Of a stretch of 51,295 nt of DNA, positions 8,021 to 49,940 are shown in pieces. The DNA is taken from NCBI GenBank assembly GCA_013360565.1, contig JABWBI010000002.1, positions 1-51,295 of the forward strand, read 5' to 3'. Made by a program: the position numbers and the translations under genes. Below the pieces are notes generated by a model that saw only the letters and a program-made list of their open reading frames with translations, was not told the origin of the DNA and made no database searches. This DNA is from Candidatus Sumerlaeia bacterium (GTDB lineage: Bacteria > Sumerlaeota > Sumerlaeia > JABWBI01). Each line of letters begins with the position of its first letter. Position 1 is the stretch's first letter.

Positions 8021-8037
8021 GACGATCGCGAGGATCC

Positions 8038-9312: not shown

Positions 9313-9317
9313 CCGGA

Positions 9318-11339: not shown

Positions 11340-11364
11340 GGCCGTGCCTCCTCGTATCCCGTGG

Positions 11365-13464: not shown

Positions 13465-13547
13465 GAAAAAAAGCCTCCCATCGAGGACCGGATCATCGTC
13501 ACCACAGCATGGCACATCCCCCGCAGGACCGTCAACCCGCGCAGGCT

Positions 13548-14429
13548 TCAGCCCGGCCGACGCAGCAGATTGATCATCCCCTGCGTGCCCTGATCGGCCA
13601 AGCCGCTCTCCGCCGCTTCCCGGAAGAGACGCTCGGTCAGTGCGGTTCCCTCAAAGCGCCCCCCCAGCTTGCGGATCTCCTCTAGACAGAGGCGAAGGTC
13701 CTTCGCCTGCAAGTGCATCGGAAAACCGGGCGCATAGTCCCCCCTCACGATCCTCGGCGCATAGTTCGCCAAGGCCCACGAGCCAGCGGCCCCGGACGTC
13801 ACGACCTGCAGCACCTTGTCCAGGTCCATGCCGCAGCGCTCGGCGAAGGCGAGGCCCTCTGCCATGCCGAGCACGTTCAGGGCACAGATGATCTGATTGA
13901 CCATCTTCGTGCGCTGGCCCGCGCCGCTGGGCCCCATGTGGAGGATCCGTTTCCCGAAGCACTCGATCAGAGGGCGCACACGCTCGAAGGCCTCCGCGTC
14001 ACCCCCCACCATCACCGTCAGTGTGCCGTTCCGGGCTCCGATGTCGCCCCCCGTGAGTGGAGCATCGAGCAGGGCAACCCCTTGGCGGGCCAGCCGCGCC
14101 GCGAACTGCGCCGTGGCCTCGGCCGAGATCGTCGAGCAGTCGACGATCACCGAGCCCGCCGTGGCACCTTCGGCGAGACCTCCGGGGCCGAACAGGACTC
14201 CCTCGACGTCCGGAGTGTCGCTCACGCAGATGAAAACCACATCGCTGGCCGCCGCGACATCCCGGGGACTCGCTCCGACCCGCGCCCCGCGCTCGAGCAG
14301 CGGATCGCAGCGGGCGGGAGTGCGGTTGAAGACGGTCAGATCATGGCCCGCACTCAGCAGGTGGCCAGCCATCGGGCCGCCCATGATGCCGAGGCCGACG
14401 AAGCCGACGCGCTGCCGGTTCACCGCCAC
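13548..14429 (-). CDS. NAD(P)-dependent 3-hydroxyisobutyrate / 2-hydroxy-3-oxopropionate reductase-family dehydrogenase
   Basis: Rossmann motif VGFVGLGIMGGPMAGHLL, followed by the 6-phosphogluconate-dehydrogenase-like C-terminal fold (KMVNQ, GDYAPGF). The start is GTG at 14429, or GTG at 14423, which makes a GTGA overlap with the upstream stop. Confidence 0.85.
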   Translation of the reverse strand: MAVNRQRVGFVGLGIMGGPMAGHLLSAGHDLTVFNRTPARCDPLLERGARVGASPRDVAAASDVVFICVSDTPDVEGVLFGPGGLAEGATAGSVIVDCSTISAEATAQFAARLARQGVALLDAPLTGGDIGARNGTLTVMVGGDAEAFERVRPLIECFGKRILHMGPSGAGQRTKMVNQIICALNVLGMAEGLAFAERCGMDLDKVLQVVTSGAAGSWALANYAPRIVRGDYAPGFPMHLQAKDLRLCLEEIRKLGGRFEGTALTERLFREAAESGLADQGTQGMINLLRRPG

Positions 14430-15847
14430 TCGCGGTCGTTCTTCCTCCCCACGGCCGAGAGCATGTCATCGACGTGGGTGAACTTGATGCGAGGCGCGCC
14501 GCGGCGAGCACCGCGATTGACCTCGATCTGATCGAGGATCTTCCAGTCGTCGAACGTGACGTAGTCGATGCCGCGCTTCTCGAGGAGCGCCACCGTGGCC
14601 TCGCGTCCCTTGAGGGGCCGGACAGGCACCTTCCCCTTCGCCAGATCCTCGAACATGAGCTTGACCACGGCAGCGGAGGCCTGGCGGTGCATCCCGATGA
14701 GCCCCTTGGGCCCAGATTTCGCCCAGCCGACGACATACTGGCAGGGCACGATGTCGCCATCCCGCTTCGCCACGCGTCCCTCGCGATTCGAGATGATGCC
14801 CCGCTTCTCGTCGAAGGGCACCCCTGGCAGCGGCTTGCCCTGATACCCGATCGCCACGAGCGCCATCTGAGCCGGCAGCTCGAAGAAGTGCCCCGTGCCC
14901 TGGGCCGAGACGGTACCCTCATCGCCTTGGAAGAACTCGTTCTTCTCCATGCGGATGGCGCGCAGGCAGCCCTCGTCGTCGCCCAGGAACTCCACCGGGG
15001 AGGCGAAGAACTTGAAGCGGATCTTGCGCGGCTTGGTGCCCTCGCCGCGTGCATTGAACTCCTTGAGGAGCTCGAAGTTCTTCCACTTCGCCGAGCCTTC
15101 CCCCGCCCTCTCGAGCTCGTGGTCGGAGAAGTCGTCGAGCGTAATCTCCTCCTTCGGCACGACCGGGTCGGCCCCGTGGAGCTCGCCGAGCTCCTTGAGC
15201 TCGGCGGGCGTGAAGGCCGCCTGAACGGGCCCCCGGCGGCCCACCATCGTGATCTCGCGGACCCTGCTCTCCTTGAGCTGCCGCAGCGCGTGCTCGGCGA
15301 TGTCCGTCTTCATCAGATCGTCGATGTCCCGTGCGAGGATCCGCACGACGTCCACAGCGACGTTCCCATTGCCGATCACGACGACCGACTCCGCCGAGAA
15401 GTCGAACTTGGCATCCCGATAATCAGGGTGACCATTGTACCACCCGACGAAGACGGTGGCGGGCGTCACCCCGAGAAGGTACTCGCCCGGGATGCCGAGG
15501 CGACGGTCGGCCTCGTTCCCCACCGCGTAGACGATCTGATCGTAGAGGCTCGTGAGATTGCCCACCTGGAGATCGCGCCCGAGCATCACATTGCCGAAGA
15601 AGCGGAAGTTGGCGTGCTGCGCGCTCCGCTCGTACACGTTGATGACCGACTTGATCTTCTGGTGGTCGGGAGCCACGCCGCCGCGGACAAGCCCGTAGGG
15701 GGTCGGCAGACGATCATACATGTCGACTTCGACACTGATCTGCTTCTGCGAGAGCAGCGCGTCGGCGGCGTAGAAGCCGGCCGGGCCCGATCCGACAATG
15801 GCGACGCGGAGCGGCCGCTCGCCCGTGCCAATTCTCTGCTCACTCAT
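14420..15847 (-). CDS. fprA: FprA/adrenodoxin-reductase-type NADPH:ferredoxin oxidoreductase (paralog 1)
   Basis: RVAIVGSGPAGFYAADALL (FAD GxGxxG), YDRLPTPYGLVRGGVAPDHQKIKSV, and a second dinucleotide motif VVVIGNGNVAVDVVRIL. Confidence 0.85.
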   Translation of the reverse strand: MSEQRIGTGERPLRVAIVGSGPAGFYAADALLSQKQISVEVDMYDRLPTPYGLVRGGVAPDHQKIKSVINVYERSAQHANFRFFGNVMLGRDLQVGNLTSLYDQIVYAVGNEADRRLGIPGEYLLGVTPATVFVGWYNGHPDYRDAKFDFSAESVVVIGNGNVAVDVVRILARDIDDLMKTDIAEHALRQLKESRVREITMVGRRGPVQAAFTPAELKELGELHGADPVVPKEEITLDDFSDHELERAGEGSAKWKNFELLKEFNARGEGTKPRKIRFKFFASPVEFLGDDEGCLRAIRMEKNEFFQGDEGTVSAQGTGHFFELPAQMALVAIGYQGKPLPGVPFDEKRGIISNREGRVAKRDGDIVPCQYVVGWAKSGPKGLIGMHRQASAAVVKLMFEDLAKGKVPVRPLKGREATVALLEKRGIDYVTFDDWKILDQIEVNRGARRGAPRIKFTHVDDMLSAVGRKNDREWR

Positions 15848-15943
15848 GAGTGCTCACAGCCTCCCGTCCGTCGCCTTTCTCCGCTGGGGTCCCTCCAGGC
15901 TCTGCCACGCGCCCCGCCCATTTTCAAGTCCTCTGGCTCGCCG

Positions 15944-17365
15944 TCACCGCCAGTCGGGGTGGTCGCGCTTGCCCATGATGACCAGCATGTCCTCGATCGC
16001 GCTGAACTTCACGCGGGGCGCCCCGCGCCGCTGGCCGCGGTTGACCTCGACCCGGTCGAGGATCTTCCAGTCGTGGAAGGTGACGAAGTCGATCTGACGC
16101 TCGTCGAGCAGCCGATAGATCGCCTCGCGGTCCGGCAAGTCACGCTCGGGCACGCGGCCATCGCGGAGGTCTTCGAGCACAAGCTTCGCCACGGCTCCCG
16201 AGGCCTGCTTGTGGCTGCCGATGAGTCCCTGGGGGCCGCTCTTGGCCCAGCCAGCGACATACTGGTTCGGCACCACCTCCCCCGTCGCCGGGTCCGTCAC
16301 GCACCCGTCCGTGTTGGGGATGATTCCTTTCCTCTCATCGAAGGGGACCCCGGGGATGGGGCGGCCGCGATATCCAATCGACACGAGAACCATCTGGACC
16401 GGGATCTCGAAGAACTCGCCGGTCCCCTTGGCCTGCAGGCCGCCGCTCGATCCGGGAACGAGGATGTTCTTTTCCAAGCGAACAGCCCGGACACGGCCGT
16501 CGTCGTCACCGATGAACTCCACCGGCGACACGAGGAAATGGAAATGCAGCTTCCGCGGCTTGTCGCCCTTTCCACGGGTGGCGTACTCCCGCAGGAGGGC
16601 CACATTCTTCTGAGCGGCGGAGTTCTTCCCGGAAGCATCGAGCTCCGCGAGGCTCCCCTCATCCAGGTCGATCTCTCGCGGATCCACGACGGCATCAGCC
16701 TCTTCCAGATGACCCAGCTCGCGCAGCTCGGCCGGCGTGAACGCCGCCTGGACGGGGCCTCGGCGGCCCAGCAGGTGGATCTGCCGGACCTGACTCCTCT
16801 CCAGCGCGCTCAGAGCATGGCTGGCGATGTCGGTCGCCGCCAGCTCCTCCGCGTCCTGGGCCAGGATTCGCGCCACGTCCACGGCGACGTTGCCGTTGCC
16901 GACAACGGCCACGCTCTTGGCGGAGAAGTCGAATGTGGCATCGCGATAATCGGGGTGGGCGTTGTACCAGCCGACAAAGACCGTGGCCGGCGTGACCCCG
17001 ATCAGGTACTCACCGGGAATGCCCAGGCGACGATCGGCCTCGTTGCCGACGGCGTAGACGATCTGGTCATAGTGCGCGACCAGGTCGGCCACCTGAACGT
17101 CACGCCCCAGCATCACGTTGCCCAGAAACCGGAAGTTCTCGTGCTGCGCGGCCCGCTCGTAGATCGCAATGACGGACTTGATCTTCTGGTGATCGGGCGC
17201 CACCCCGCCCCGGACGAGGCCGTAGGGGGTGGGCAGCCGATCGAACATGTCGACTTCGACCTCCGTCGCCGTCTGGCCGAGAAGCGCGTCAGCGCAGTAG
17301 AAGCCCGCCGGGCCCGAGCCGATGATCGCAACGCGCAGAGGGCGCTCCTTGGTGCCGATGGTCAT
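15944..17365 (-). CDS. fprA: FprA/adrenodoxin-reductase-type NADPH:ferredoxin oxidoreductase (paralog 2)
   Basis: It carries the same motifs as paralog 1 (RVAIIGSGPAGFYCADALL, FDRLPTPYGLVRGGVAPDHQKIKSV, VAVVGNGNVAVDVARIL). I prefer ATG 17365 (MTIGTKERPLRV) by N-terminal alignment with paralog 1. ATG 17395 is an alternative start. Confidence 0.85.
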   Translation of the reverse strand: MTIGTKERPLRVAIIGSGPAGFYCADALLGQTATEVEVDMFDRLPTPYGLVRGGVAPDHQKIKSVIAIYERAAQHENFRFLGNVMLGRDVQVADLVAHYDQIVYAVGNEADRRLGIPGEYLIGVTPATVFVGWYNAHPDYRDATFDFSAKSVAVVGNGNVAVDVARILAQDAEELAATDIASHALSALERSQVRQIHLLGRRGPVQAAFTPAELRELGHLEEADAVVDPREIDLDEGSLAELDASGKNSAAQKNVALLREYATRGKGDKPRKLHFHFLVSPVEFIGDDDGRVRAVRLEKNILVPGSSGGLQAKGTGEFFEIPVQMVLVSIGYRGRPIPGVPFDERKGIIPNTDGCVTDPATGEVVPNQYVAGWAKSGPQGLIGSHKQASGAVAKLVLEDLRDGRVPERDLPDREAIYRLLDERQIDFVTFHDWKILDRVEVNRGQRRGAPRVKFSAIEDMLVIMGKRDHPDWR

Positions 17366-17476
17366 GGATCTCACGTGCCTCGCTGTGGCTGACATGCGCG
17401 GCCCTGGCCGCAGAGCCCGGGAGCATCCGGAGCCCGGGCCCGGGAATCAAGCCCAATGAGCACGGGACCTCCACCG

Positions 17477-18816: not shown

Positions 18817-18892
18817 TGGGGGATGGTGCAACTGGTAGCACACCTGACTCTGGATCAGGATGTTCTAGGTTCGAGTCCTAGTCCCCCAGCCA
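18817..18892 (+). tRNA. tRNA-Gln: tRNA-Gln, anticodon CUG, with genomically encoded CCA
   Basis: Folded by hand. Acceptor TGGGGGA/TCCCCCA (U1:A72, as in bacterial tRNA-Gln). D stem GTGC/GCAC. Anticodon stem CCTGA/TCAGG with loop CTCTGGA (anticodon CTG). T arm CTAGG-TTCGAGT-CCTAG. Discriminator G, then CCA. Total 76 nt. Confidence 0.93.
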
Positions 18893-18909
18893 CCATCGCT
18901 CGCTGGCGC

Positions 18910-19374
18910 TCAGGGAGTCTCTCTGCCTCCCCTCCATCCTCGCCCCTCGCCCCCGGGCGGGGCCTCCAGCAAGTCGTCTCCCCGGCGCGCGGCCTGAACT
19001 TTGCCCAGCCACGGTGCGGCGATGAGAGCGGCCAGAATCAACAGGGCCGCAGAGGCGATCAGCAGACGAAATCTCCTTCGTCCCGCCGGGACTGTCGGCC
19101 CGCCGGCGATCTGTGCCTTGATCCAGGCCCAGTGAAGGATCAGGTGGACGGCGAATCCTGCGAGCAGGCCCACGGCCACCCAGAAGTGGACGTTGCCCCA
19201 GGCGTGCCGGTCGAGTCCCCAAAGGAGGCGAACTGCTCCGCCGCTGCGCCCCCCCTCCATGCGCCCGCTCCCGGGTGGCAAGATGAATTCCAGGACGAAA
19301 CCTGTGGAGACCAGCCCGCCTGCCAAGATGAGCAGAAGCGAGTCGAGAATGAGATTGAGCCTTCCCCTTGGCAT
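18910..19374 (-). CDS. DUF4405-like small membrane protein (possible cytochrome-b-like haem-binding helices)
   Basis: Three or four TM helices carry the His pattern typical of DUF4405 (RHAWGNVHFWVAVGLLAGFAVHLILHWAW). I prefer ATG 19374 (MPRGRLNLILDSLLLIL). The 54 residues upstream of it in track ORF 18910..19536 look non-protein-like. Confidence 0.55.
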   Translation of the reverse strand: MPRGRLNLILDSLLLILAGGLVSTGFVLEFILPPGSGRMEGGRSGGAVRLLWGLDRHAWGNVHFWVAVGLLAGFAVHLILHWAWIKAQIAGGPTVPAGRRRFRLLIASAALLILAALIAAPWLGKVQAARRGDDLLEAPPGGEGRGWRGGRETP

Positions 19375-19640
19375 CGCCCTGTGACCGCCTTCTCGGGAAG
19401 CGGAGAGATGCTGCCCCAACTCTGCCCGGGAGTTCAAGCCATGATGATGGCCTGGGGGCTTGCCATGGCGGCACACCGTGCGAAAATCATTGACCCTGCC
19501 GACGACGGGAGGAAAGTTCAGGCGTCTTCGCGTCATGGCGTTGCAAACCCAAGAGTTTCAGCGCTCCTCCCAGCTCAGCGCACGCGGGGCCTGACGCCTG
19601 ACCCACTCGCAACACGCCCGCCGGGAAGCATCTGAGGCCC

Positions 19641-20261
19641 ATGGTGTCAGTCATTCGTCAGAGCGAGCGGTCCGTGTCACAGGTGACCGACCCCGCTGCC
19701 CTGAAACGGCTGGGCGAAGCAGTTCGCCGGGGGGACCCACAGGCCCTCTCGGCACTCATCGATCAGTTCGGGCCTGGGTTGCTGCACTACCTGGTCACCT
19801 GCACCGGCCACCAGGAGACCGCCGAGGATCTGCTGCAAGACACGCTGCTGGCGGCTGTCCGCCACTGCCACCGTCTTCGGCACCCCGAGCGTCTCCGGGC
19901 GTGGCTTTTCCGGATCGCCCGCCACACGGCGCTGAATTGGCAGCGACGCCGGCGCCGCCACCCGGACTTGGCGGCCAGCCCGCTCGACGATTTGATGCCG
20001 GGGCCTGTTGTGATAAACCGCGCCCGCGACAGGACCCAGCGCAGCGATCTCCGCCGCGTTCTGGAGGAGGCGCTGGCGACGCTGCCCAGCACCGAGCGTG
20101 ACGTGATCGTGCTTCGACACTTCGAGCACCTGAGCTCCGTCGAAGTCGCTCACGTGCTCCGCGTCCGGGTGGGAACGGTGCACTCACGCACTCACCGCGG
20201 CCTGAAGCGGCTCCTTGAGCACCTTCAGGAGCGCGGGCTGACACTGGAGGCTCTTCTGTGA
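19641..20261 (+). CDS. ECF-type RNA polymerase sigma factor (sigma-70 regions 2 and 4)
   Basis: Region 2: EDLLQDTLLAAVRH...AWLFRIARHTALNWQRR. Region 4 HTH: ERDVIVLRHFEHLSSVEVAHVLRVRVGTVHSRTHRGLKRL. Confidence 0.9.
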   Translation: MVSVIRQSERSVSQVTDPAALKRLGEAVRRGDPQALSALIDQFGPGLLHYLVTCTGHQETAEDLLQDTLLAAVRHCHRLRHPERLRAWLFRIARHTALNWQRRRRRHPDLAASPLDDLMPGPVVINRARDRTQRSDLRRVLEEALATLPSTERDVIVLRHFEHLSSVEVAHVLRVRVGTVHSRTHRGLKRLLEHLQERGLTLEALL

Positions 20262-21184
20262 ATTGCAGCCGGTGCCAAAGGCTGCTGGCTCCGCTCCGCG
20301 AGGGTACCCTTCGCCCCCGCGTGGCTCGAGCTGCCGCCAGCCACCTCGCCACGTGCGACGCCTGCCGAATGGTGGCTGACGCCCAGGGGCGGGTGGGAGA
20401 GGTCCTGGCGGGCTTCTCACCACCTCCCCTCCGGTCTTCGCTCCGTGAGACTCTGCTTCAGCGGGTGGCCCGCGAGGCCCCAGTACGGCCCATCCGCCCG
20501 CGAGCGGACTGGTTCCCCCGTTGGGCCCCTGCGGCCGCAGCCGCCGCGCTGTGCTTCGCGCTGACCGCCGCCGTGTGGCTGAATCTGCGAGGACACACGG
20601 ATCCCTCCGTCGCCATCGCCCGGGTGGTGGTCGGTGAGGTCGAACACCGGGTGGGCGCGGACGGTCAGTGGCATCCCCTCCGGGCGGGTGACCTCCTGCC
20701 AGAGCGTAGCCAGCTGATGAGCCGCGAGAACGGCATGGCCATCGTCGAGACCGACGGGGGAGTCAGCCTCTCCATGGCTCAGCAGACCGCGGTGAGCATT
20801 GTCGACGCCGAGTCGATCGCCTGGGATGGAGGCCGCATGGTGGCCTCAGCGAGCGAGGGCCTGCGCGTGCACACGCCGGTGGGTGCGATCGTGTTTCGCC
20901 GCGCGGGAGGCAGTCTCGCCATCAGCAGCGAGGCGGGAGACGATCCCGGAGTCGCCATGGGGCCCGTCGGCGCCGTCTGGGAGAACGAGACCTCCGGTTC
21001 CGTCATCTTGCCCGCCGGTTCGACATCCGACCTGATCGGCGCGAGCGGCACCACCCGCCCCACCCGGGTCCACTTTCCCGGGTGGACGTGGCTCCAGGAT
21101 CTCGAGCAGGCGCGTGCCCGCGAGCTCCTCCGCGAGACCCACCCCTCGCTCCTGCCTCCCCTCGCCCCCTCTCCCGGACGATGA
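20258..21184 (+). CDS. Anti-sigma factor (zf-HC2, one TM helix, FecR-like extracytoplasmic domain)
   Basis: The GTG start overlaps the sigma stop (GTGA). The N-terminus has CSRCQ...HLATCDACR (the Hx3Cx2C zinc motif), then a TM helix WAPAAAAAALCFALTAAVWL, then a beta-rich domain with GQWHPLRAGDLLPERSQL of the FecR type. Confidence 0.8.
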   Translation: MNCSRCQRLLAPLREGTLRPRVARAAASHLATCDACRMVADAQGRVGEVLAGFSPPPLRSSLRETLLQRVAREAPVRPIRPRADWFPRWAPAAAAAALCFALTAAVWLNLRGHTDPSVAIARVVVGEVEHRVGADGQWHPLRAGDLLPERSQLMSRENGMAIVETDGGVSLSMAQQTAVSIVDAESIAWDGGRMVASASEGLRVHTPVGAIVFRRAGGSLAISSEAGDDPGVAMGPVGAVWENETSGSVILPAGSTSDLIGASGTTRPTRVHFPGWTWLQDLEQARARELLRETHPSLLPPLAPSPGR

Positions 21185-32096: not shown

Positions 32097-32996
32097 TCAT
32101 TCGACGGGTGACCGGGCGAATGCCTCCGGATGGATCACTCTCGCCAGGAGTTCGATCTGCTCCGGCAGCCGGGGGCCAGGAATGGTGAGACGCGGGTCCG
32201 TCAGCAGGCGGACGCGCCCGTTGACGACGGCATCGACGCCGGGCAGCTCGCGGCGGTACAGCGCCAGCTCCGCCGCGATCTGCTCGGGCGTGGGACTCGC
32301 ATTCTCCAGGCAAGTGTCGATGATGACCTCGGGGTCGGACCCGAGAATGATCTCCCGGCTGATCTCCGGATAGGCTCCGAGTGCATTCTCCAACACATTG
32401 ACCGCCCCGGCGCGCTCTGCGAGCTCGCTGACGAACGACGTGGGCCCCGCCGCATAGAGACTCTGGAACGTCCCGGGCTCCCGCCCGATCAGCACAAGCG
32501 TCCGGCGCGGGGGGATCCCCTCCAGACTTGCGGCCAGGGAAGTCATTCTCGCGTCCATGGCGCCGACGAGAGCCTCGCCGCTCGCCAGAGCCCCTGACTG
32601 GCCCGCGATGGCGAGGATGCCATCGCGCACCTGGGCAATCGAGTCCGACTGGACTTGCAGCACGGGAATCCCAGCCGCCGTCAGAGGCGCGTAGAGATCA
32701 TGGGCGCTCGTGATGCAGATGGCGAGGTCCGGATCGAGGGCGAAGACCCGCTCCCAGTCGACGTTGAGCAACCCCCCGATCGACGGAAGGTTCCGCGCCT
32801 CAGCCGGCCAGGCGCAGAAGTCGGTGCGGCCGATCACGCGTTCCCCGAGTCCAAGAGCGAAGAGGGTCTCGGTGACATGTGGCGCCAGCGACAGAATGCG
32901 ATGTGGCGGCGGCCCGGAGGGCACCGGCGCCGCTGCGGCCGGGAGGACCGCTGTGGAGAGAAGGAGAGTGAGAAGCGATTTCATCGACCGTGTCAT
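32097..32996 (-). CDS. Periplasmic substrate-binding protein of the BtuF/FecB class (ABC-type cobalamin or iron-chelate binding)
   Basis: The start is ATG 32996 (MTRSMKSLLTLLLSTAVLPAAAA, a signal peptide). RILSLAPHVTETLFALGLGERVIGRTDFC and PDLAICI are typical of PF01497-type proteins. The remaining 2.2 kb of track ORF 32097..35189 is antisense to the Hsp70 gene. Confidence 0.8.
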   Translation of the reverse strand: MTRSMKSLLTLLLSTAVLPAAAAPVPSGPPPHRILSLAPHVTETLFALGLGERVIGRTDFCAWPAEARNLPSIGGLLNVDWERVFALDPDLAICITSAHDLYAPLTAAGIPVLQVQSDSIAQVRDGILAIAGQSGALASGEALVGAMDARMTSLAASLEGIPPRRTLVLIGREPGTFQSLYAAGPTSFVSELAERAGAVNVLENALGAYPEISREIILGSDPEVIIDTCLENASPTPEQIAAELALYRRELPGVDAVVNGRVRLLTDPRLTIPGPRLPEQIELLARVIHPEAFARSPVE

Positions 32997-33158
32997 GGTC
33001 TCACCCCTGTCCAGCGGGGGCAAGTGCGGGGTGCCCCGCCCGCGAATCGGGGGGTCAACTTCCCCCAGGCCGGGTCCGATAAGAGACCAGACGCTTCGCC
33101 CCGGCCAGGGGGCAAGCGGGCTCTTTTCAGCGACGCGAGGAGAAAACCAGGGGCTCCC

Positions 33159-36100
33159 ATGCCATCCGTTGACCACATCCTCGGGATTGACCTCGGCACA
33201 ACGAACTCGGTGATGGCCCTGATCGAAGGCGAAAACCCCCGTGTCATTCCCAATGCCGAGGGTCAGAACAAGACGCCGAGCGTCGTCTCCTTCTTGCCGA
33301 ACGGCGACGTGGTGGTTGGGGAGATCGCCCGGCGACAGGCGGCGACGAACGTTCAGCGGACGATCTTCTCGGTCAAGCGCCTGATGGGCCGACAGATTGA
33401 GGAGCTCGGCGACGATCTGGACTTCTTCACGTGCCCCATCGTCTCGAAGGACGGACTTGCCGCTCTCGACATCGGGGGCCGGGTCATGACTCCCTCCGAA
33501 GTGTCCGCCCTGATCCTGAAGAAACTCCGGGACGATGCGGAGGCGTATCTCGGACACGAGATCAGCAAGGCCATCATCACCGTCCCCGCCTACTTCGACG
33601 ACCGGCAGCGGCATGCCACGGTCGAGGCGGGCCGTCTCGCCGGCCTCGAGGTGCTGCGGATCATCAACGAGCCGACCGCGGCGGCGATGGCCTATGGCCT
33701 CAACAAGACGGCCGAGGAGCGCATCGCCGTCTTCGATTTCGGTGGCGGGACCTTCGATCTCTCGGTTCTCGACATCTCCGGAGGTGCCTTCGAGGTCGTG
33801 ACCAGCCTCGGCGATTCGCATCTGGGAGGCGACGACATCGACCATGCCATCGTCGACCACATGCTCGAGGAGTTCCACCGGCAGCACGGCATCGACCTCG
33901 GCGCCGACGACCTCGCGATCCGCCGCCTCAAGGAGGCCGCCGAGAAGGCCAAGTGCGAACTCTCGGGGACCAGCTCCACGCTGATCTCGCTCCCCTTCAT
34001 CGGCCAGACGCCCGACGGTCAGCCCGTGCACCTCGAGATGACGCTGAACCGGGACGTGCTCGAGGCCATGGCCGAGCCCTTCGTCCAGCGCTGCCTCGAC
34101 TGCTGTCGCCAGGCGCTCAGCGATGCCGGGCTCGCCGTCCGTGACATCGCACGGGTGATTCTTGTCGGCGGCTCCACGCGGATTCCCCTCGTCCAGGAGG
34201 CCGTCGAAGACTTCTTTGGCATCCCCCCCGACCGCGGCGTGAATCCCGACGAGATCGTCGCTCAGGGCGCTGCAACCCAGGGCGGTGTGATGTCCGGCGC
34301 GCTGGAGGAGGTCGTGCTCCTCGAAGTCACCCCCTTCGCGCTCGGAATCGAGACGAAGGGGGACCAGATCTCGAAGGTCATCGACAAGAATGCGACGATT
34401 CCCATCAAGGCCGCCAAGGTGTTCACGACCACGGAGGACGATCAGCCGCTCGTCAACATCCACGTCGTCCAGGGAGAGGGGATGAAGGCCTCGGAGGCCG
34501 TGAGCCTCGGCAAGTTCACCCTGACCGACATCGCCGCGGCGAAGGCGGGCGTCCCCCGTATCCGGGTCACTTTCACCGTCAACGCGGACGGCATCGTCGA
34601 GATCGAGGCCGAGGACCTCGCCTCGGGGCAGGCCAAGAGCCTGCGCATCCTGCACACTTTCGAGCGCCGGGGACCTGTCGCCATCGGCGGCGACGCCGAG
34701 GAGTCGCGTCAGCGCCGGCCCAATCGCTGGCGCGACCGCCGTCGCCGCCTGCGCACCGGCGAGGGGCTCGCCAAGGAATCCTTGACCGGCGTTCCGCTCA
34801 ACGCCCGCGTTCCCGCACCCGGCAGTGACGCGGTGAGCCCGATGCCGGCCCGGCGCGAGGAGTCGGGTCCTCAGGACGTCGACTTCGCCGCCGCAGCGAC
34901 CAACCCCTGCGGTCCTCCGCACCTCTCCAATTCGGGAGCCGGCGGACGGCCAGACATGAGCTCCACCGAGGCGAATCGCCTCCTCGCCGAGGTCCAGCGC
35001 CTGCTCGAGAGGCGCGCAACCGACACCATCGCGCACGAGGCCTACCGGGCCGCCGTCCGAGTCCTCGAAGAGCGGCTGCGTCAGACCTCCGACGACGCGG
35101 TGACACTGCGTCTTCTGGGTGAAGTGCAGCTGATGCTCGGCAACTTCACCGAGGCAAGGAACCTCTTCCAGCGCCACGTGCGCCGGCATCCGGACCTGAC
35201 CTCAGAGATTCGCTCCTGCTACGACCGGCTCCTCACGCTCTGCCCGCAGGCAATGGAGGCGCGGCTCGACCGGGCCCGGGTCATCGCCAAGATGGGCGAC
35301 CTCGATGCGGCGATCGCCGACCTCGAGAACCTCGGCGGCGCGGAGACCCGCAGCGCGGCGGCCATCGAGCTGATGATCGAACTGCTCAGGCAGCGTGTCG
35401 AGCAGACGGGCGACTCCGCCACCGAGTTCAAACTCGTCAAGCTTCATCTCCAGCAGAACGACCTCGATGAGGCGATCGCCATCCTCCAGCGGCTCGTGAA
35501 CCGCGACAGCTGCGCCGAGCGGGCCGGCAAAGTGCTCGGCCTCTGCTTCTGGCAGAAGCACATGCACTATCTGGCGTGGCAGCGCTTCCGCGCCCTCCCC
35601 TTCAACGACGAGATCAAGGATATCCTGTACCGCCTGAGCCAGGACATGGAGGCGGCCGAGGACTGGGAAGGGGCGCGCCAGGTCCTCGACCATCTGGCGC
35701 AGCGCGATCCGGGGCACCGCGACGTGGCGCAGCGCCTGGAGAGTGTCCGGACCCGCGTCCGCCAGTCGCGGGGCAAGCGCCCCACCTCGCAGAGCGACGT
35801 CTTCGGCACGCTCAACACGCCCGAGAGCCAGATCGACGACGTCCGCTTCTCCATCCTGGGCGAGATCAACCGCGGCAGCATGGGCGTCATCTACAAGGCC
35901 AAGGACAACGTCCTCGACGAGATCGTCGCGATCAAGGTCCTCAACGCCTTCCTCTGCTCCGATCCCCAGGCCGTCGACCGCTTCAAGCGCGAGGCCCGGG
36001 CGGCCAAGCGCCTCTCGCATCCGAACATCGTGCGCATCCACGACATGTTCGAGAAGGGGACGAAGAAGTTCCTCTCGATGGAGTTCATTGACGGCTCCGA

Positions 36101-36665
36101 CCTCAAGTCGATCCTGCGCACACAGGGCCGCATCGATCCCGCCGAGGTCATCCGCGTCGCGAGCGAGGTCTGCATCGCCCTGGCGTATGCGCACCGGCTC
36201 GAGATCATCCACCGGGACATCAAGCCGGCGAACATCATGATCACCCAGCGGACCCGCGCCGTGAAGATCACAGACTTCGGCATCGCCAAGTCGCTCTCAC
36301 CTGCCGACCGCTCCTCGACCGGGACGCTGGTGATGGGCACTCCCCTCTACATGGCCCCTGAGCAGGTCGAGGGCAAGCCCGTCGATGCGAGAACGGATCT
36401 CTACTCCCTCGGTGTGCTCATGTACGAGCTGGTCTCCGGCAAGCCCCCGTTCAACGAAGGCAACATTGAGTATCACCATCTCCACACCGAGCCCGAGCCC
36501 CCCGCCGACTGCCCCTCTCTCCTGCGCGATGTCATCATGCGCTGTCTCGCCAAGCCGCGGGAGGAGCGCTTCCAGTCGGCCGACGAGCTCCTCGCTCAGC
36601 TCAAGGGCCTCTCGCTTGCCGGCACAGATGCCGGTCTCGGCGTCCGCTCCGTCGCCGCCTCTTGA
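33159..36665 (+). CDS. Hsp70/DnaK-like ATPase + substrate-binding beta domain, Arg-rich linker, TPR-like helical region, C-terminal Hanks-type Ser/Thr protein kinase (single 1168-aa ORF)
   Basis: ATG 33159 gives MPSVDHILGIDLGTTNSV. Hsp70 signatures are intact: DLGTTNS, IINEPTAAAMAYG, DFGGGTFDLSV, LVGGSTRIPLVQ, NPDEIVAQGAA, and SBD-beta LLEVTPFALGIET...IRVTFTVNADGIVEIEAED. The kinase has GEINRGSMGVIYKA, VAIKVL, HRDIKPANIM, DFGIAKS and YMAPEQ. There is no stop anywhere between the two parts. The 168 codons upstream in the track ORF are non-coding read-through. Confidence 0.88.
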   Translation: MPSVDHILGIDLGTTNSVMALIEGENPRVIPNAEGQNKTPSVVSFLPNGDVVVGEIARRQAATNVQRTIFSVKRLMGRQIEELGDDLDFFTCPIVSKDGLAALDIGGRVMTPSEVSALILKKLRDDAEAYLGHEISKAIITVPAYFDDRQRHATVEAGRLAGLEVLRIINEPTAAAMAYGLNKTAEERIAVFDFGGGTFDLSVLDISGGAFEVVTSLGDSHLGGDDIDHAIVDHMLEEFHRQHGIDLGADDLAIRRLKEAAEKAKCELSGTSSTLISLPFIGQTPDGQPVHLEMTLNRDVLEAMAEPFVQRCLDCCRQALSDAGLAVRDIARVILVGGSTRIPLVQEAVEDFFGIPPDRGVNPDEIVAQGAATQGGVMSGALEEVVLLEVTPFALGIETKGDQISKVIDKNATIPIKAAKVFTTTEDDQPLVNIHVVQGEGMKASEAVSLGKFTLTDIAAAKAGVPRIRVTFTVNADGIVEIEAEDLASGQAKSLRILHTFERRGPVAIGGDAEESRQRRPNRWRDRRRRLRTGEGLAKESLTGVPLNARVPAPGSDAVSPMPARREESGPQDVDFAAAATNPCGPPHLSNSGAGGRPDMSSTEANRLLAEVQRLLERRATDTIAHEAYRAAVRVLEERLRQTSDDAVTLRLLGEVQLMLGNFTEARNLFQRHVRRHPDLTSEIRSCYDRLLTLCPQAMEARLDRARVIAKMGDLDAAIADLENLGGAETRSAAAIELMIELLRQRVEQTGDSATEFKLVKLHLQQNDLDEAIAILQRLVNRDSCAERAGKVLGLCFWQKHMHYLAWQRFRALPFNDEIKDILYRLSQDMEAAEDWEGARQVLDHLAQRDPGHRDVAQRLESVRTRVRQSRGKRPTSQSDVFGTLNTPESQIDDVRFSILGEINRGSMGVIYKAKDNVLDEIVAIKVLNAFLCSDPQAVDRFKREARAAKRLSHPNIVRIHDMFEKGTKKFLSMEFIDGSDLKSILRTQGRIDPAEVIRVASEVCIALAYAHRLEIIHRDIKPANIMITQRTRAVKITDFGIAKSLSPADRSSTGTLVMGTPLYMAPEQVEGKPVDARTDLYSLGVLMYELVSGKPPFNEGNIEYHHLHTEPEPPADCPSLLRDVIMRCLAKPREERFQSADELLAQLKGLSLAGTDAGLGVRSVAAS

Positions 36666-36702
36666 CTTGCCTCCCCCGGGGACTGTGACATGATCGGACC
36701 CC

Positions 36703-37218
36703 ATGAGCGAGAGCACTGAGCAGCACCGCCGCGACGCCCAGAGTCAGGGCTCCATCGCCTGCGCGGTCATCACTGTGTCGGACACGCGGACGCCCGAGAC
36801 GGACGGCGGCGGCGCGCTGATCGCCGATCTGCTGGTCTCAGCCTCGCACAGGGTCGTCTCACGCCTCATCGTGAAGGACGAGGCGAAGCAGATCGCCGGC
36901 GCCCTGCGCGAGATCAAGCTCGGCAAGACGGTCCAGGCCGTGATGATCACCGGCGGAACGGGAATCACGCGGCGCGATGTGACCCCCGACATCGTCGAGA
37001 GCTTCCTCGACAAGCGCCTCGACGGGTTCGGTGAGATCTTCCGCGTGCTCTCGTTCGAGGAGATCGGCCCCGCCGCGATGCTCTCGCGCGCCGTCGCCGG
37101 CGTCATGGGCGAGATCCTCGTCTTCGCCATGCCCGGCTCCACCGCCGCCGTCCGGCTCGCCATGGAGCGCCTGATCATCCCGGATCTCCGGCACCTCGTC
37201 CACGAGGCGCGGAAGTGA
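36703..37218 (+). CDS. moaB: Molybdenum cofactor biosynthesis protein B (MoaB/Mog family)
   Basis: AVITVSDTRTPETDGGG, ITGGTGITRRDVTPD, GFGEIFRVLSFEEIG, LSRAVAG, MPGSTAAV. Confidence 0.88.
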   Translation: MSESTEQHRRDAQSQGSIACAVITVSDTRTPETDGGGALIADLLVSASHRVVSRLIVKDEAKQIAGALREIKLGKTVQAVMITGGTGITRRDVTPDIVESFLDKRLDGFGEIFRVLSFEEIGPAAMLSRAVAGVMGEILVFAMPGSTAAVRLAMERLIIPDLRHLVHEARK

Positions 37219-48821: not shown

Positions 48822-49932
48822 ATGCCCCTGTCGCCTCCTCGCATCCTCCTCGCCAAGCTCGGCCTCGACGGCCATGACCGCGGCGTCAAGGTGATCGCCC
48901 GGGCTCTGCGCGATGCAGGGATGGAGGTCATCTACACCGGCCTCCGTCAGACGCCCGAGTCCGTTGCGCGCGCCGCGCTGGAGGAGGATGTGGCCGTCGT
49001 CGGAGCCAGCCTTCTCAGCGGCGCTCACATGACGCTCGTGCCTCGGCTACTCGAGGCGCTCCGGCGCCTGAACCGAAGCGATGTCGGCGTCCTTGTCGGC
49101 GGCATCATCCCGTCGCAGGATGCCCGGGCCCTCGCCGAGATTGGCGTGCGCCGCGTCCTCGGGCCGGGCACGGCACTGAGTGAGATCATCGCGGAGGTCC
49201 ACACCGCGGCCGGGGAGCGTGTCTCCTCCGTCACGGACCCCGATGCCAGCCCCGGGGCGCTGGCGCGGCGGATCACGCGCATCGATGACGGTCTCCCTCA
49301 TGGCTCCCCCACCCCCGATGCCCGCGGGGCGAGCATCGCCGTGACTGGCCCGCCCGGCGTCGGCAAGTCGACGCTGGTCGCGCATCTGGCCGTTGCGCTG
49401 CGCGCCCGCGGAGAGCGCGTGGCCATCGTCGCGGTTGACCCCGACTCGCCTGTCTCCGGAGGCGCCCTCCTCGGCGATCGGCTGAGAATGGCCCCCGCCA
49501 GCGATGATCCGGACATCTTCATCCGCAGTCTCTCGGCCCGCGGCGGTGCAGGCGGGATCTCGCGCTCGACGGGGGCGGTCGCCGCTCTCCTGCGCGCGTC
49601 GGGCTTCGACCGTGTGCTGATCGAGACCGTCGGTGCGGGCCAAGCCGACCACGCCGTCTCATCCATCGCGGATCTGACGATCCTGACGACTATGCCGGGC
49701 CTGGGCGACGGGGTCCAGTGGGAGAAGGCCGGCCTCGCCGAGGTCGCGGGCCTCTTCGTTATCAACAAGGCCGACCTCCCCGGCGTCGAGGCGACCGAGA
49801 GCGCAATCCGCGGTTCGGTCGGTCTCGGCGGTGGCGAACCGGTGATCGTCCGGACAGTCGCGGCGGAGGGCCAGGGCGTCGATGCGCTGGCGACCGAGGT
49901 GGAGCGCCTGCTCGCCGCCGGGAGACGCGGCC

Positions 49933-49940
<8 letters not shown>
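48822..49940 (+). CDS. Fusion of a methylmalonyl-CoA-mutase-type cobalamin-binding domain and a MeaB/ArgK G-protein chaperone
   Basis: N-terminal B12 domain: [19 protein letters not shown] (DxHxxG), [16 protein letters not shown]-terminal GTPase: [43 protein letters not shown]. Confidence 0.87.

What the first reader, a model, noticed from the sequence alone, without database searches (positions are those of the whole stretch)
33159..36665. One uninterrupted ORF joins a complete Hsp70 core to TPR-like repeats and a C-terminal Hanks-type Ser/Thr kinase
The first ~500 aa have every Hsp70 ATPase signature: DLGTTNS, DFGGGTFD, VGGSTRIP and NPDEIVAQGAA. A full SBD-beta follows (LLEVTPFALGIET...VTFTVNADGIVEIEAED). 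The usual alpha-helical lid is missing. In its place are an Arg-rich low-complexity linker (QRRPNRWRDRRRRLRTG), about 330 aa of TPR-like helices, and a kinase domain. The kinase looks catalytically complete: VAIK Lys, HRDIKPAN, DFG and APE. There is no TM segment, and the kinase is C-terminal, whereas in most bacterial multidomain Hanks kinases it is N-terminal. No dnaJ or grpE lies nearby. This layout suggests a kinase whose activity or substrate choice depends on a chaperone-type peptide clamp. Alternatively, it could be a chaperone regulated by autophosphorylation. I do not recall a characterised example.
Basis: partly seen in the sequence, partly recalled or inferred. Interest (0 to 1): 0.8.

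Follow-up and report, generated by a model that had tools for sequence, protein, structure and literature searches.

The report
Hsp70-kinase fusion protein of Sumerlaeota
One intact gene, conserved across the uncultured bacterial phylum Sumerlaeota, joins a lid-less Hsp70 chaperone to a helical-repeat domain and a PknB-like protein kinase; no study of it was found, and it may link protein-folding load or client binding directly to phosphorylation signalling.

Summary
Window 33159-36665 (+) is one uninterrupted 1168-aa ORF. It encodes a DnaK-type Hsp70 NBD+SBDβ (Pfam E 2e-188, lid missing), a ~100-aa disordered Arg-rich linker, a 15-helix TPR-like domain and a PknB-like Hanks kinase (E 3e-55).

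It is not an artefact or a one-off. At least 120 protein clusters share the architecture. In 55 GTDB species loci, all Sumerlaeota/BRC1 or unclassified MAGs, 41 have one open frame and the rest are contig-truncated or frameshifted. It is one copy per genome, with no conserved neighbour.

Catalytic, allosteric and J-protein-contact residues of the Hsp70, its peptide pocket, and all kinase catalytic residues are invariant or nearly so. A separate lid-bearing Hsp70 exists in the same MAG as one copy, so the fusion is an extra paralog. The linker carries a lid-helix remnant, a polybasic run and a conserved short hydrophobic motif.

Unrelated Hsp70+kinase fusions, in both domain orders, occur in Planctomycetales, Chloroflexota, Nonomuraea and others. 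No publication describing any of them was found.

Best reading (inferred): a chaperone-gated signalling kinase. It is a new, uncharacterised variant built from known domains.

The parts
33159..36665 (+). Complete gene for the 1168-aa Hsp70 / helical-repeat / Ser-Thr kinase fusion protein (stop codon 36663-36665)
   Evidence: Uninterrupted translation. Pfam HSP70 + TPR + Pkinase. At least 120 homologous clusters share the architecture. 41 of 55 GTDB loci have one open frame. GC3 stays in frame.
32997..33158 (.). 162-bp divergent intergenic region between the minus-strand Peripla_BP_2 gene (32097-32996) and the fusion gene. Presumed promoter region. Purine-rich GAGGAG at 33137-33142, 16 nt before the ATG.
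   Evidence: Sequence read; Peripla_BP_2 hit. No sigma-70 consensus match in this interval (the scan of 32900-36800 found none there) and no CIRCE operator anywhere in the window. The promoter is inferred only.
33159..34298 (+). Hsp70 nucleotide-binding domain (aa 1-380)
   Evidence: Pfam and NCBIfam DnaK hits. 49-50% identity to solved DnaKs. Invariant across 120 members: K73 (= DnaK K70), P143, R151, E171, D193-GGGTF-D200, R167/N170/T173. pLDDT mostly above 90.
34299..34649 (+). Interdomain linker (VVLLEVTPF) and substrate-binding β-domain (aa 381-497)
   Evidence: Gap-free alignment to E. coli DnaK 385-501. Pocket residues I401, T403, F426, Q433, V436, I438 and I472 are conserved; the arch pair M404/A429 is K/T. 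K410/N411/D477 (= DnaK K414/N415/D481) are nearly invariant. The model superposes on docked ATP-type DnaK 7krt at 1.8 Å.
34650..34958 (+). Disordered, Arg/Pro/Gly/Ala-rich linker replacing the α-helical lid (aa 498-600)
   Evidence: pLDDT below 50 for 498-522 and 534-598. The region from aa 485 to 625 spans 124-356 residues across the family. Composition.
34710..34751 (+). Polybasic run RRPNRWRDRRRR (aa 518-531). It overlaps the only predicted helix in the linker (523-533) and is probably a relic of lid helix A/B.
   Evidence: A basic cluster sits at the same place in essentially all members. It aligns with 'EEDRRRR' of a solved DnaK lid. Helix 523-533.
34875..34895 (+). DVDFAAA (aa 573-579): the query clade's divergent version of the family's linker motif [ST]-F-[AR]-[EVM]-[LVI]-x-D-[TS]
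   Evidence: EM motif search on 120 linkers gives log-likelihood 512, against 172 for a model re-trained on shuffled linkers. The median best site score is 13.4 bits against 2.5 when the same model is scored on shuffled linkers. The motif lies 60-110 aa after SBDβ in most members. F576 is matched in about 70% of the aligned column. The query's own copy scores poorly against the motif model.
34959..35774 (+). TPR-like helical-repeat domain, 15 helices (aa 601-872)
   Evidence: Pfam TPR_19 (48 bits), TPR_14 and TPR_6 are above their cut-offs. AF2 helices 602-872 have pLDDT mostly above 90.
35421..35654 (+). Most conserved, family-specific part of the repeat domain (aa 755-832: FKLVK..LDEAI..LQ..; KILGLCFWQK..YLAWQKF..LP; KDILYRL..DME)
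   Evidence: Invariant L776 and G794, with many positions at 90% or more. The peptide patterns [KR][IV]LGL[CT][FYH]WQ and E[IVL]NRGSMG[IV] retrieved only Sumerlaeota or unclassified MAGs from 185,579 species genomes.
35775..35846 (+). Short flexible connector between repeat domain and kinase (aa 873-896)
   Evidence: pLDDT below 50 for 874-886 and for the equivalent stretch in the sub-model.
35847..36638 (+). PknB-like Hanks Ser/Thr kinase domain (aa 897-1160)
   Evidence: Pkinase E 3.4e-55. Best PDB structural matches are M. tuberculosis PknB/PknA, 36-38% identity, TM about 0.84. Invariant: K926, E945, H1018-R-D1020, K1022, N1025, D1039-x-G1041, T1061-PLYM-x-PE1068, D1080. An activation-loop Thr column at 1052 is at least 90% conserved, Ser in the query.

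Best explanation
WHAT IT IS (shown). It is a real cytoplasmic protein, found as one copy per genome and restricted to the phylum Sumerlaeota among the GTDB species genomes scanned. It is an extra Hsp70 paralog, not the only Hsp70 of the cell. A DnaK-derived ATPase and peptide clamp has lost the helical lid beyond a short remnant. A 100-350-aa disordered linker tethers it to a family-specific TPR-like domain and a PknB-like Ser/Thr kinase.

HOW IT MOST LIKELY WORKS (inferred). It is a chaperone-gated signalling kinase. The Hsp70 module is the sensory input, and its clamp cycles with ATP and probably a J-domain partner. At rest the clamp, or the repeat domain, holds a segment of the protein's own linker. 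The candidate segment is the conserved F-x-x-[LVI]-x-D-[TS] motif next to the polybasic lid remnant. This keeps the repeat-kinase unit from pairing. When exposed hydrophobic segments of unfolded proteins, or a dedicated client, compete for the clamp, the tether is released. The kinase then dimerises, autophosphorylates the conserved activation-loop Thr/Ser as PknB does, and phosphorylates downstream targets.

The logic matches BiP titration from IRE1/PERK, or DnaK titration from sigma-32, but built into one polypeptide. My confidence in the identity and anatomy is about 0.95. My confidence in this particular mechanism is about 0.4, which is the figure given below.
For: - Intact fusion in the window and in 41 of 55 species genomes, one copy each.
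- Co-occurrence with a lid-bearing 608-aa Hsp70 in the same MAG, GCA_026418615.1.
- Every residue needed for an allosterically coupled Hsp70 cycle is invariant or nearly so: K73, P143, R151, E171, the phosphate-2 motif, the hydrophobic interdomain linker, K410/N411/D477, and the J-domain contacts R167/N170/T173.
- The hydrophobic peptide pocket is retained.
- AF2 places SBDβ docked on the NBD as in ATP-DnaK.
- All kinase catalytic residues and an activation-loop phospho-acceptor are conserved. The fold is closest to PknB/PknA.
- The disordered linker is not random. It has a lid remnant, a polybasic run and a short hydrophobic motif enriched well over shuffles.
- A divergent relative that keeps most of the lid (P0124) has no long linker.
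- Hsp70 and Hanks kinases have been fused independently several times, in both orders and once with a GrpE-like segment. This argues that coupling the Hsp70 cycle to a kinase is useful.
- No conserved neighbour or operon partner, as expected of a self-contained sensor-effector.
Against: - No experiment exists.
- AF2 gives no confident inter-module geometry (pTM 0.54 and 0.48). It leaves the linker, including the query's motif, unstructured.
- The query's own copy of the motif is degenerate (DVDFAAA) and scores poorly against the family model.
- About a quarter of members lack a clear motif.
- The motif is followed by acidic residues, which classical DnaK-binding peptides disfavour (my knowledge of the Rüdiger et al. 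1997 rules).
- Direction of control (clamp to kinase, or kinase to clamp) cannot be read from sequence.
- No heat-shock operator (CIRCE) or recognisable promoter was found upstream.
Confidence: 0.4

Rival explanations
1. Client-recruiting kinase. The Hsp70 clamp, perhaps together with the repeat domain, is a substrate-capture module that brings unfolded or specific client proteins to the tethered kinase. The kinase marks them by phosphorylation, for example for triage, degradation or sequestration. The kinase is constitutively competent, and specificity comes from the clamp.
For: Same conservation of clamp and kinase. The long flexible tether (124-356 aa from aa 485 to 625) would let the kinase reach a clamp-bound client. 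Lid-less Hsp70s bind and release peptides quickly (established for DnaK lid truncations, my knowledge), which suits transient presentation. The repeat domain is conserved enough to be a second docking surface.
Against: It does not explain the conserved linker motif or the polybasic remnant. The conserved activation-loop phospho-acceptor suggests regulated rather than constitutive activity. No candidate client is encoded nearby.
Confidence: 0.25
2. Self-regulated chaperone. The kinase exists to phosphorylate the Hsp70 module or its linker in cis or trans, tuning ATPase rate, client affinity or oligomerisation. The protein is primarily a specialised chaperone.
For: T198 (= DnaK T199, the known DnaK autophosphorylation site; my knowledge) and many Ser/Thr in the linker are available. 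The family motif often ends in D-[TS]. DnaK is reported among Ser/Thr phosphoproteins in bacterial phosphoproteome literature (papers listed, not read in detail).
Against: A lid-less Hsp70 is a poor stand-alone foldase (my knowledge). A lid-bearing Hsp70 with its own J-protein is already present in the same genome. The strongly conserved repeat domain has no role in this model.
Confidence: 0.13
3. PknB-type regulator of cell-envelope growth, in which the Hsp70 and repeat domains replace the usual TM+PASTA sensor.
For: The kinase is closest to PknB/PknA. Envelope genes lie nearby in some lineages: PBP4/S13 peptidase, polysaccharide flippase and heptosyltransferase in the window and L001, and mreB-mreC-mreD-rodA plus a response regulator directly upstream in L002/L003.
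Against: Neighbourhoods differ in L004-L007, and no neighbour family is shared by more than 9 of 42 loci. There is no TM segment or PASTA domain. NCBIfam PknB_PASTA scores 298 bits against a cut-off of 450.
Confidence: 0.08
4. Anti-phage or conflict-system component, for example a PD-T4-6-like or MADS-like kinase, or an HSP70-containing GTPase-centred system.
For: PADLOC PD-T4-6 and mad6 models hit with E down to 1e-85. NCBIfam MADS6 hit. HSP70 with GrpE, and with DnaJ- or TPR-fused FNIII proteins, appears in GAP1-N2 GTPase conflict systems (PMC7159879).
Against: All hits cover only the generic kinase domain and are far below the family cut-off (165 against 460 bits). The gene is one copy per genome across a phylum and sits in ordinary chromosomal contexts. 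No adjacent gene in the sampled contexts has a GTPase, tubulin, methylase or effector Pfam hit.
Confidence: 0.03
5. Artefact: a frameshift, mis-assembly or gene-calling fusion of adjacent dnaK and kinase genes.
For: 4 of 55 GTDB loci carry a frameshift between or within the modules, which shows that assemblies of this gene can be error-prone.
Against: 41 independent genomes and at least 120 protein clusters have one open frame. In the four exceptions the Hsp70 part is still immediately upstream in another frame. GC3 stays in frame through the window's linker.
Confidence: 0.01

Closest known systems
Bacterial DnaK (Hsp70), e.g. E. coli DnaK, and engineered or natural lid-less variants (e.g. Mycoplasma genitalium DnaK lacking SBDα, PDB 5obu)
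   Same: 49-50% identity over NBD, interdomain linker and SBDβ. The catalytic residues, the proline-switch/R151 relay, the J-domain contact residues and the hydrophobic peptide pocket are all conserved. The predicted fold matches the docked ATP state.
   Different: The α-helical lid and C-terminal tail are replaced by a disordered linker, a repeat domain and a kinase. The arch residues are K/T instead of M/A. There is no grpE or dnaJ neighbour. The genome holds another lid-bearing Hsp70.
PknB/PknA-type Hanks Ser/Thr kinases (M. tuberculosis PknB, PDB 1o6y; S. aureus Stk1)
   Same: Kinase fold with TM about 0.84 and 36-38% identity. All Hanks catalytic motifs are present, and the activation loop has a conserved Thr/Ser.
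   Different: The kinase is C-terminal, with no TM helix or PASTA domain. The first glycine of the G-loop is an invariant Asn (EINRGSMG). The N-terminal regulatory region is an Hsp70.
PknG (Mycobacterium/Corynebacterium): a soluble Hanks kinase with a TPR domain
   Same: A cytoplasmic kinase covalently joined to a TPR-type helical domain thought to mediate regulatory protein contacts (as summarised in PMC11032199).
   Different: Domain order is reversed (TPR before the kinase here). The Pfam scan shows no rubredoxin domain. The repeat domain is a family-specific sequence. An Hsp70 is present. No PknG model appeared among the hits listed.
BiP-IRE1/PERK (eukaryotic unfolded-protein response) and DnaK-sigma32 titration (functional analogy only)
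   Same: Proposed logic: occupancy of an Hsp70 peptide clamp by unfolded proteins is converted into activation of a signalling output, a kinase in IRE1/PERK (established knowledge of those pathways).
   Different: In those systems the Hsp70 and the effector are separate proteins, and there is no homology outside the Hsp70 and kinase folds. Here they are one chain. The analogy is an inference, not a tested property.
Other natural Hsp70+Pkinase fusions found here (P0139 from Nonomuraea coxensis DSM 45129, P0136 Planctomycetales, P0184 Chloroflexota, P0148 Hsp70-GrpE-like-kinase; all annotated only as DnaK or Hsp70 family protein)
   Same: They share the same two enzymatic modules in one ORF.
   Different: Kinase identity to the query is only 26-43%. 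They lack the family's repeat domain and signature motifs. In many, domain order is reversed, and several keep the full lid. They are most simply independent fusions. None was found to be characterised.

Membership tests
Hsp70 / DnaK (PF00012) | Actin-like nucleotide-binding domain with catalytic Lys, Glu and phosphate-binding motifs | tested here: met
   HSP70 E 1.8e-188. K73, E171 and D193-GGGTF-D200 are invariant in 120 members. 49-50% identity to solved DnaKs.
Hsp70 / DnaK (PF00012) | Conserved hydrophobic interdomain linker and β-sandwich substrate-binding domain with hydrophobic pocket | tested here: met
   VVLLEVTPF. Gap-free alignment to DnaK 385-501 with I401, T403, F426, Q433, V436, I438 and I472 conserved.
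Hsp70 / DnaK (PF00012) | α-helical lid (SBDα) and C-terminal tail | tested here: not met
   The Pfam match stops at profile position 496 of 599. NCBIfam DnaK models are matched only to about position 494 of 596-669. AF2 shows disorder in 498-598 except one short helix.
Canonical housekeeping DnaK (NCBIfam equivalogs) | Full-length score above curated cut-off | tested here: inconclusive
   NF001413 scores 684.7 against a cut-off of 648 (passes). TIGR02350 scores 669 against 822.55, NF009947 599 against 1002 and NF009946 571 against 1019 (all fail). The public 'molecular chaperone DnaK' annotation therefore describes only the first 43% of the protein.
Canonical housekeeping DnaK | Linkage with grpE/dnaJ, or being the genome's principal Hsp70 | tested here: not met
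   No J-domain or GrpE in the window. A separate 608-aa lid-bearing Hsp70 with an adjacent J-domain protein is in the same MAG as fusion locus L013.
Hanks-type Ser/Thr protein kinase (PF00069) | G-loop, VAIK Lys, αC Glu, HRD catalytic loop with Asn, DFG, APE, subdomain IX Asp, subdomain XI Arg | tested here: met
   Pkinase E 3.4e-55. K926, E945, H1018-R-D1020, K1022, N1025, D1039, G1041, P1067-E1068 and D1080 are invariant, and R1137 is at least 90% conserved. The G-loop is an atypical but invariant N-R-G-S-M-G.
PknB/Stk1 PASTA kinases (NF033483) | N-terminal kinase, TM helix, extracellular PASTA repeats | tested here: not met
   298 bits against a cut-off of 450, kinase region only. No TM segment. 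No PASTA hit.
TPR repeat proteins (Pfam TPR clan) | Tandem helix-turn-helix repeats recognised by TPR profiles | tested here: met
   TPR_19 48.3 bits (cut-off 25), TPR_6 41.8 (26.3), TPR_16 39.7 (32.7), TPR_14 35.3 (23.5). 15 helices at high pLDDT. No closer structural analogue could be named, because the fold searches were dominated by the Hsp70 and kinase parts.
Defence kinases PD-T4-6 / MADS MAD6 / BREX PglW | Full-length match above cut-off and defence-island context | tested here: not met
   Only the kinase domain matches. MAD6 scores 165 against 460 bits and PglW 76 against 990. The chromosomal contexts are variable and ordinary.
Chaperone-titration stress sensors (BiP-IRE1/PERK type logic) | Kinase activity controlled by occupancy of the Hsp70 clamp | not testable with these tools
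   This needs biochemistry. Only the prerequisites (intact clamp, intact allostery, intact kinase, conserved tether motif) were shown.

The most novel reading that the evidence does not exclude
Sumerlaeota carry a one-polypeptide 'unfolded-protein response'. A lid-less Hsp70 clamp is auto-inhibited by a tethered pseudo-substrate motif in its own disordered linker. Misfolded proteins titrate the clamp away, and this switches on a PknB-like kinase. Independent Hsp70-kinase fusions in Actinomycetota, Planctomycetota, Chloroflexota and others would then be convergent solutions to the same problem, defining a previously unrecognised class of bacterial chaperone-coupled kinases.
Probability: 0.25. 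Interest if true: 0.85.

Novelty: new variant of a known kind. Interest (0 to 1): 0.6.

Why it matters
How cells turn chaperone occupancy into a signal is usually studied in multi-protein systems such as DnaK-sigma32, BiP-IRE1/PERK and Hsp70/90-HSF1. In those systems stoichiometry and transient contacts are hard to control. A natural, conserved fusion of a complete Hsp70 engine to a complete Hanks kinase would be a compact and tractable model for that coupling.

It would also add a new input domain to bacterial Ser/Thr kinase signalling. It shows what evolution does with an Hsp70 once the lid is removed. In practical terms, at least 120 database clusters are currently labelled 'molecular chaperone DnaK' (where they carry a name at all), which hides the kinase. 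The protein's repeat segment is also a clean sequence marker for the phylum.

Tried and rejected
- **Literature.** Eight full-text searches and three papers read for Hsp70, DnaK or kinase-fusion mentions. Nothing on this architecture. The only HSP70 plus signalling association found (GAP1-N2 GTPase systems, PMC7159879) is operonic and unrelated in context.
- **Conserved gene neighbours.** Six homolog contexts were inspected by hand. All-against-all BLAST of 965 flanking ORFs from 42 loci found a best recurrent family in only 9 of 42 loci, i.e. subclade synteny only.
- **Heat-shock regulation.** No CIRCE match with up to 3 mismatches, and no sigma-70-like site upstream.
- **Defence role.** PADLOC hits are generic kinase-domain matches.
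- **Internal-start isoform.** Met600 is not conserved. Shorter 'repeat+kinase only' representatives (P0141, P0146, P0152, P0157, P0167, P0199, P0242) look like truncated gene calls, but this could not be confirmed. P0167 is not on record. The four GTDB loci that seemed to lack Hsp70 are frameshifted full-length genes.
- **Inter-domain geometry.** Two AF2 runs gave confident domains but pTM of 0.54 and 0.48, with no PAE or coordinates available. Docking of the linker motif or repeat domain onto the clamp or kinase could not be assessed.
- **Structural analogue of the repeat domain.** Both Foldseek searches were filled by kinase or Hsp70 chains.
- **Neighbouring TPR-kinase as source of the fused module.** The TPR-kinase next to the stand-alone Hsp70 in L065 shares only 32% identity and lacks the family motifs.
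- **Failed call.** One search failed on mis-set coordinates for the upstream gene. This was corrected.

Full report
**Observation.**
- Pfam finds HSP70 at residues 7-497. It matches profile positions 1-496 of 599 (E 1.8e-188), so the α-helical lid is not matched.
- Pfam also finds several TPR families between 613 and 860, four of them above their curated cut-offs, and Pkinase at 900-1145 (E 3.4e-55).
- NCBIfam places the N-terminal part with DnaK rather than HscA. It places the C-terminal part nearest PknB/Stk1-type kinases, without reaching that family's cut-off.
- The likely start is the ATG at 33159. The Hsp70 profile begins six residues later. The upstream extension of the frame overlaps a divergent minus-strand gene for a periplasmic binding protein (32097-32996, Peripla_BP_2).
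- GC at third codon positions is 0.81-1.0 in every segment. It is highest in this frame through the low-complexity linker, tied in one 150-nt window.
- There is no TM segment.

**Is it real, and how common is it?** A search of 5.8 billion protein clusters returned at least 120 clusters at 90% identity with the same HSP70 + Pkinase architecture (most also with TPR hits), 1141-1366 aa long. Those that carry names are almost all from Candidatus Sumerlaeota/BRC1, and the names are 'molecular chaperone DnaK' or 'Hsp70 family protein'. The closest relatives are 69-70% identical.

A probe built from the most conserved part of the repeat domain retrieved 56 loci from one-genome-per-species GTDB. All are Sumerlaeota/BRC1 MAGs or unclassified 'bacterium' MAGs, with one locus per genome. 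One of the 56 (L063) matched only 19 residues at the kinase G-loop, and the other 55 were analysed. Of those 55:
- 41 carry Hsp70 and kinase in one open frame;
- 10 are cut by a contig end;
- 4 have a frameshift, with the Hsp70 part still immediately upstream.

The fusion is therefore a genuine gene found across the phylum, not an assembly artefact.

**Context.** The window is an ordinary chromosomal segment. It includes a histidine kinase, a DEAD-box helicase, an ECF sigma factor, tRNA-Gln, a PBP4-type peptidase, a polysaccharide flippase, a heptosyltransferase and MeaB. It has no J-domain or GrpE-like sequence.

The closest relative (L001) shares the upstream synteny. More distant relatives sit in unrelated contexts, one of them directly after mreBCD-rodA and a response regulator. 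Clustering 965 flanking ORFs from 42 loci found no neighbour family in more than 9 loci. The gene stands alone, with a 162-bp divergent upstream region. Neither a CIRCE operator nor a sigma-70 consensus was found there.

**Anatomy and conservation.** An alignment of 120 members shows these positions invariant or at least 90% conserved:
- the Hsp70 catalytic Lys (K73 = DnaK K70), E171 and the DxGGGTFD motif including T198;
- the allosteric relay P143/R151;
- the hydrophobic interdomain linker;
- the SBDβ residues that dock on the NBD (K410/N411/D477);
- R167/N170/T173, the residues DnaK uses to contact the J-domain (my knowledge of the DnaK-DnaJ complex, PDB 5nro, which appears among the hits).

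The SBDβ aligns to E. coli DnaK 385-501 without gaps. It keeps the hydrophobic pocket (I401, T403, F426, Q433, V436, I438, I472). The arch pair M404/A429 is K/T.

The kinase keeps every Hanks catalytic residue and has a conserved Thr/Ser in the activation loop. Its G-loop has an invariant Asn in place of the first Gly.

AlphaFold2 with the family alignment gives confident domains (mean pLDDT 86.5):
- NBD+SBDβ;
- a disordered stretch 498-598, except for one helix over the polybasic run;
- 15 helices from 602 to 872;
- a short flexible connector;
- the kinase.

The Hsp70 part superposes on domain-docked, ATP-type DnaK (7krt, 1.8 Å over 500 columns). The kinase superposes on M. tuberculosis PknB/PknA (TM about 0.84, 36-38% identity). 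Relative domain orientation is not predicted (pTM 0.54, and 0.48 for repeat+kinase alone).

**The linker is not featureless.** Across the family it varies greatly in length and sequence. The region from aa 485 to 625 spans 124-356 residues. It nevertheless carries three recurring features:
- A short remnant resembling the start of lid helix A.
- A polybasic run. In the query, RRPNRWRDRRRR aligns with the 'EEDRRRR' of a solved DnaK lid.
- A short hydrophobic motif, [ST]-F-[AR]-[EVM]-[LVI]-x-D-[TS], 60-110 residues after SBDβ. An EM search gives log-likelihood 512, against 172 for a model re-trained on shuffled linkers. The median best site score is 13.4 bits against 2.5 when the same model is scored on shuffled linkers.

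The query's clade has a divergent form at the same offset (DVDFAAA, 573-579). A divergent relative (P0124) keeps most of the lid and has no long linker. This is consistent with the linker having arisen by decay of the lid.

**An extra paralog.** The closest non-fused relatives include a 608-aa Hsp70 with a helical lid from a Sumerlaeaceae MAG (P0301). It lies on another contig of GCA_026418615.1, the same MAG that holds fusion locus L013. That copy of the fusion is one of the four frameshifted loci. The 608-aa gene is preceded by a J-domain+TPR protein and has two HSP20 genes nearby. The fusion therefore does not replace the cell's other Hsp70.

**Other fusions.** An exhaustive HMMER search of 1.84 billion representatives listed its best 150 hits. 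About 22 of them are further Hsp70+kinase proteins outside the family.
- They occur in both orders: kinase then Hsp70, and Hsp70 then kinase without the family's repeat domain.
- One type has a GrpE-like segment between the two modules (P0148).
- Their kinase domains are only 26-43% identical to the query and lack the family motifs.
- Named examples come from a Planctomycetales MAG, a Chloroflexota MAG and the cultured actinomycete Nonomuraea coxensis DSM 45129. A haloarchaeal record is modelled both as one gene and as two.
- These are most simply independent fusions. All are annotated only as DnaK or Hsp70.

**Mechanism.**

*Shown:*
- a complete, allosterically competent-looking Hsp70 ATPase and peptide clamp lacking its lid;
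- a flexible tether with conserved short elements;
- a strongly conserved repeat domain;
- a complete PknB-like kinase, all in one cytoplasmic chain.

*Inferred:*
- The clamp's occupancy and nucleotide state are coupled to kinase output.
- I favour a chaperone-gated sensor (about 0.4). At rest the clamp or repeat domain holds the protein's own linker motif. Competing unfolded proteins or a client release the repeat-kinase unit. It then dimerises and autophosphorylates as PknB does.
- The rivals are a client-recruiting kinase (about 0.25), a chaperone tuned by its own kinase (about 0.13) and an envelope-growth regulator (about 0.08).
- A defence role and an artefact are effectively excluded.
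- Weaknesses: there are no experimental data, no predicted inter-domain contacts, and the motif is degenerate in the query itself.

**Comparison with the known.** By membership tests the N-terminal part is an Hsp70 of DnaK descent that fails the lid criterion and most full-length DnaK equivalog cut-offs. The C-terminal part is a Hanks kinase that fails the PknB-PASTA criteria. The middle is a TPR-clan domain with a family-specific sequence.
- PknG shares the idea of a soluble kinase with a TPR domain, but not the domain order or the partner domains.
- The BiP-IRE1/PERK and DnaK-sigma32 systems are functional analogies only.
- Eight literature searches and three targeted readings, including the main Sumerlaeota genomics paper, found no description of the protein.

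**Verdict.** It is a real, conserved and uncharacterised architecture, but it is not rare within its phylum, and Hsp70-kinase fusions occur in other phyla too. Novelty: a new variant built from known kinds. Interest: 0.6.

Noticed in passing
L064 774-3902 (protein P0148, 1042 aa; cluster of 10 members): An unrelated fusion type: Hsp70 (9-485), a GrpE-like segment (616-755, PF01025 at 30.8 bits, above the 25.8 cut-off), then Pkinase (780-1025). That puts an Hsp70, a piece of its nucleotide-exchange factor and a kinase in one chain. A dual-specificity phosphatase gene (DSPc) lies just downstream.
   Followed up: partly
Proteins P0128, P0135, P0137, P0139, P0140, P0147, P0181, P0196, P0212, P0234 (one search list): Reverse-order fusions: an N-terminal Hanks kinase followed by a DnaK-type Hsp70, several with the full lid. 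P0139 is from the cultured actinomycete Nonomuraea coxensis DSM 45129 (QYC45718.1, annotated 'Chaperone protein DnaK') and would be an accessible experimental entry point.
   Followed up: partly
L065 88-15588 (GCA_026418615.1, contig JAOAAY010000013): The stand-alone 608-aa Sumerlaeaceae Hsp70 (8001-9827) directly follows a 253-aa J-domain+TPR protein (7239-8000). Around it are two HSP20 genes, two further TPR proteins and an 855-aa membrane-anchored TPR+Pkinase protein (13021-15588). This is a chaperone/TPR/kinase-rich neighbourhood of unknown meaning.
   Followed up: partly
L066 503-3886 (protein P0124, 1127 aa, Logan SRR32456876): A divergent relative of the family: kinase 54% identical, the NRGSMG G-loop present, a weak 24% match to the repeat domain. 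It retains most of the Hsp70 lid (profile 1-572 of 599) and has no long disordered linker, so it may represent the ancestral state. A STAS-domain gene lies downstream. A STAS gene plus a SpoIIE phosphatase also follow the family member in L005.
   Followed up: partly
L010, L012, L013, L019: In four of the 55 GTDB species loci analysed, the fusion gene has a frameshift. In L010, L012 and L019 it falls in or near the low-complexity linker. In L013 it falls inside SBDβ. These are either assembly errors or pseudogenes.
   Followed up: yes
L002/L003 5137-13573: In candidate division BRC1 bacterium ADurb.Bin183 the fusion gene directly follows mreB-mreC-mreD-rodA and a response-regulator gene on the same strand. 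This resembles the pknB-rodA-pbpA linkage of actinobacteria, but it is not seen in the other lineages sampled.
   Followed up: partly
window 32097-35189 (minus strand): A 1030-codon open frame runs antisense through the first 2 kb of the fusion gene. Only its 3' end (32097-32996) is a real gene (Peripla_BP_2 with a signal-peptide-like start). The rest is the usual high-GC antisense ORF artefact.
   Followed up: yes
window 9318-11450 and 11365-13515 (minus strand): Two tandem paralogous ~710-aa genes, each with an F5/8 type C (discoidin) domain and a Golvesin_C domain. The called ORFs overlap by about 85 nt, so one start is probably mis-set.
   Followed up: no
window 48822-49940 (+): A 372-aa ORF fuses a B12-binding domain (7-119) to a MeaB-type G-protein chaperone (168-363). 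This is a compact relative of the IcmF-type mutase-chaperone fusions.
   Followed up: no
window 18817-18892; 19641-21184: tRNA-Gln(CTG) overlaps the start of the mechanically called ORF 18823-19635, which has no Pfam hit and is doubtful at least at its 5' end. An ECF-type sigma factor (19641-20261) is followed, with a 4-nt overlap, by a 308-aa ORF with no Pfam hit, a plausible anti-sigma factor.
   Followed up: no
window 14420-17395 (minus strand): Two adjacent genes each encode a Pyr_redox_2 flavoprotein (475 and 483 aa). A 972-codon plus-strand frame (14474-17392) overlaps both and is probably spurious.
   Followed up: no
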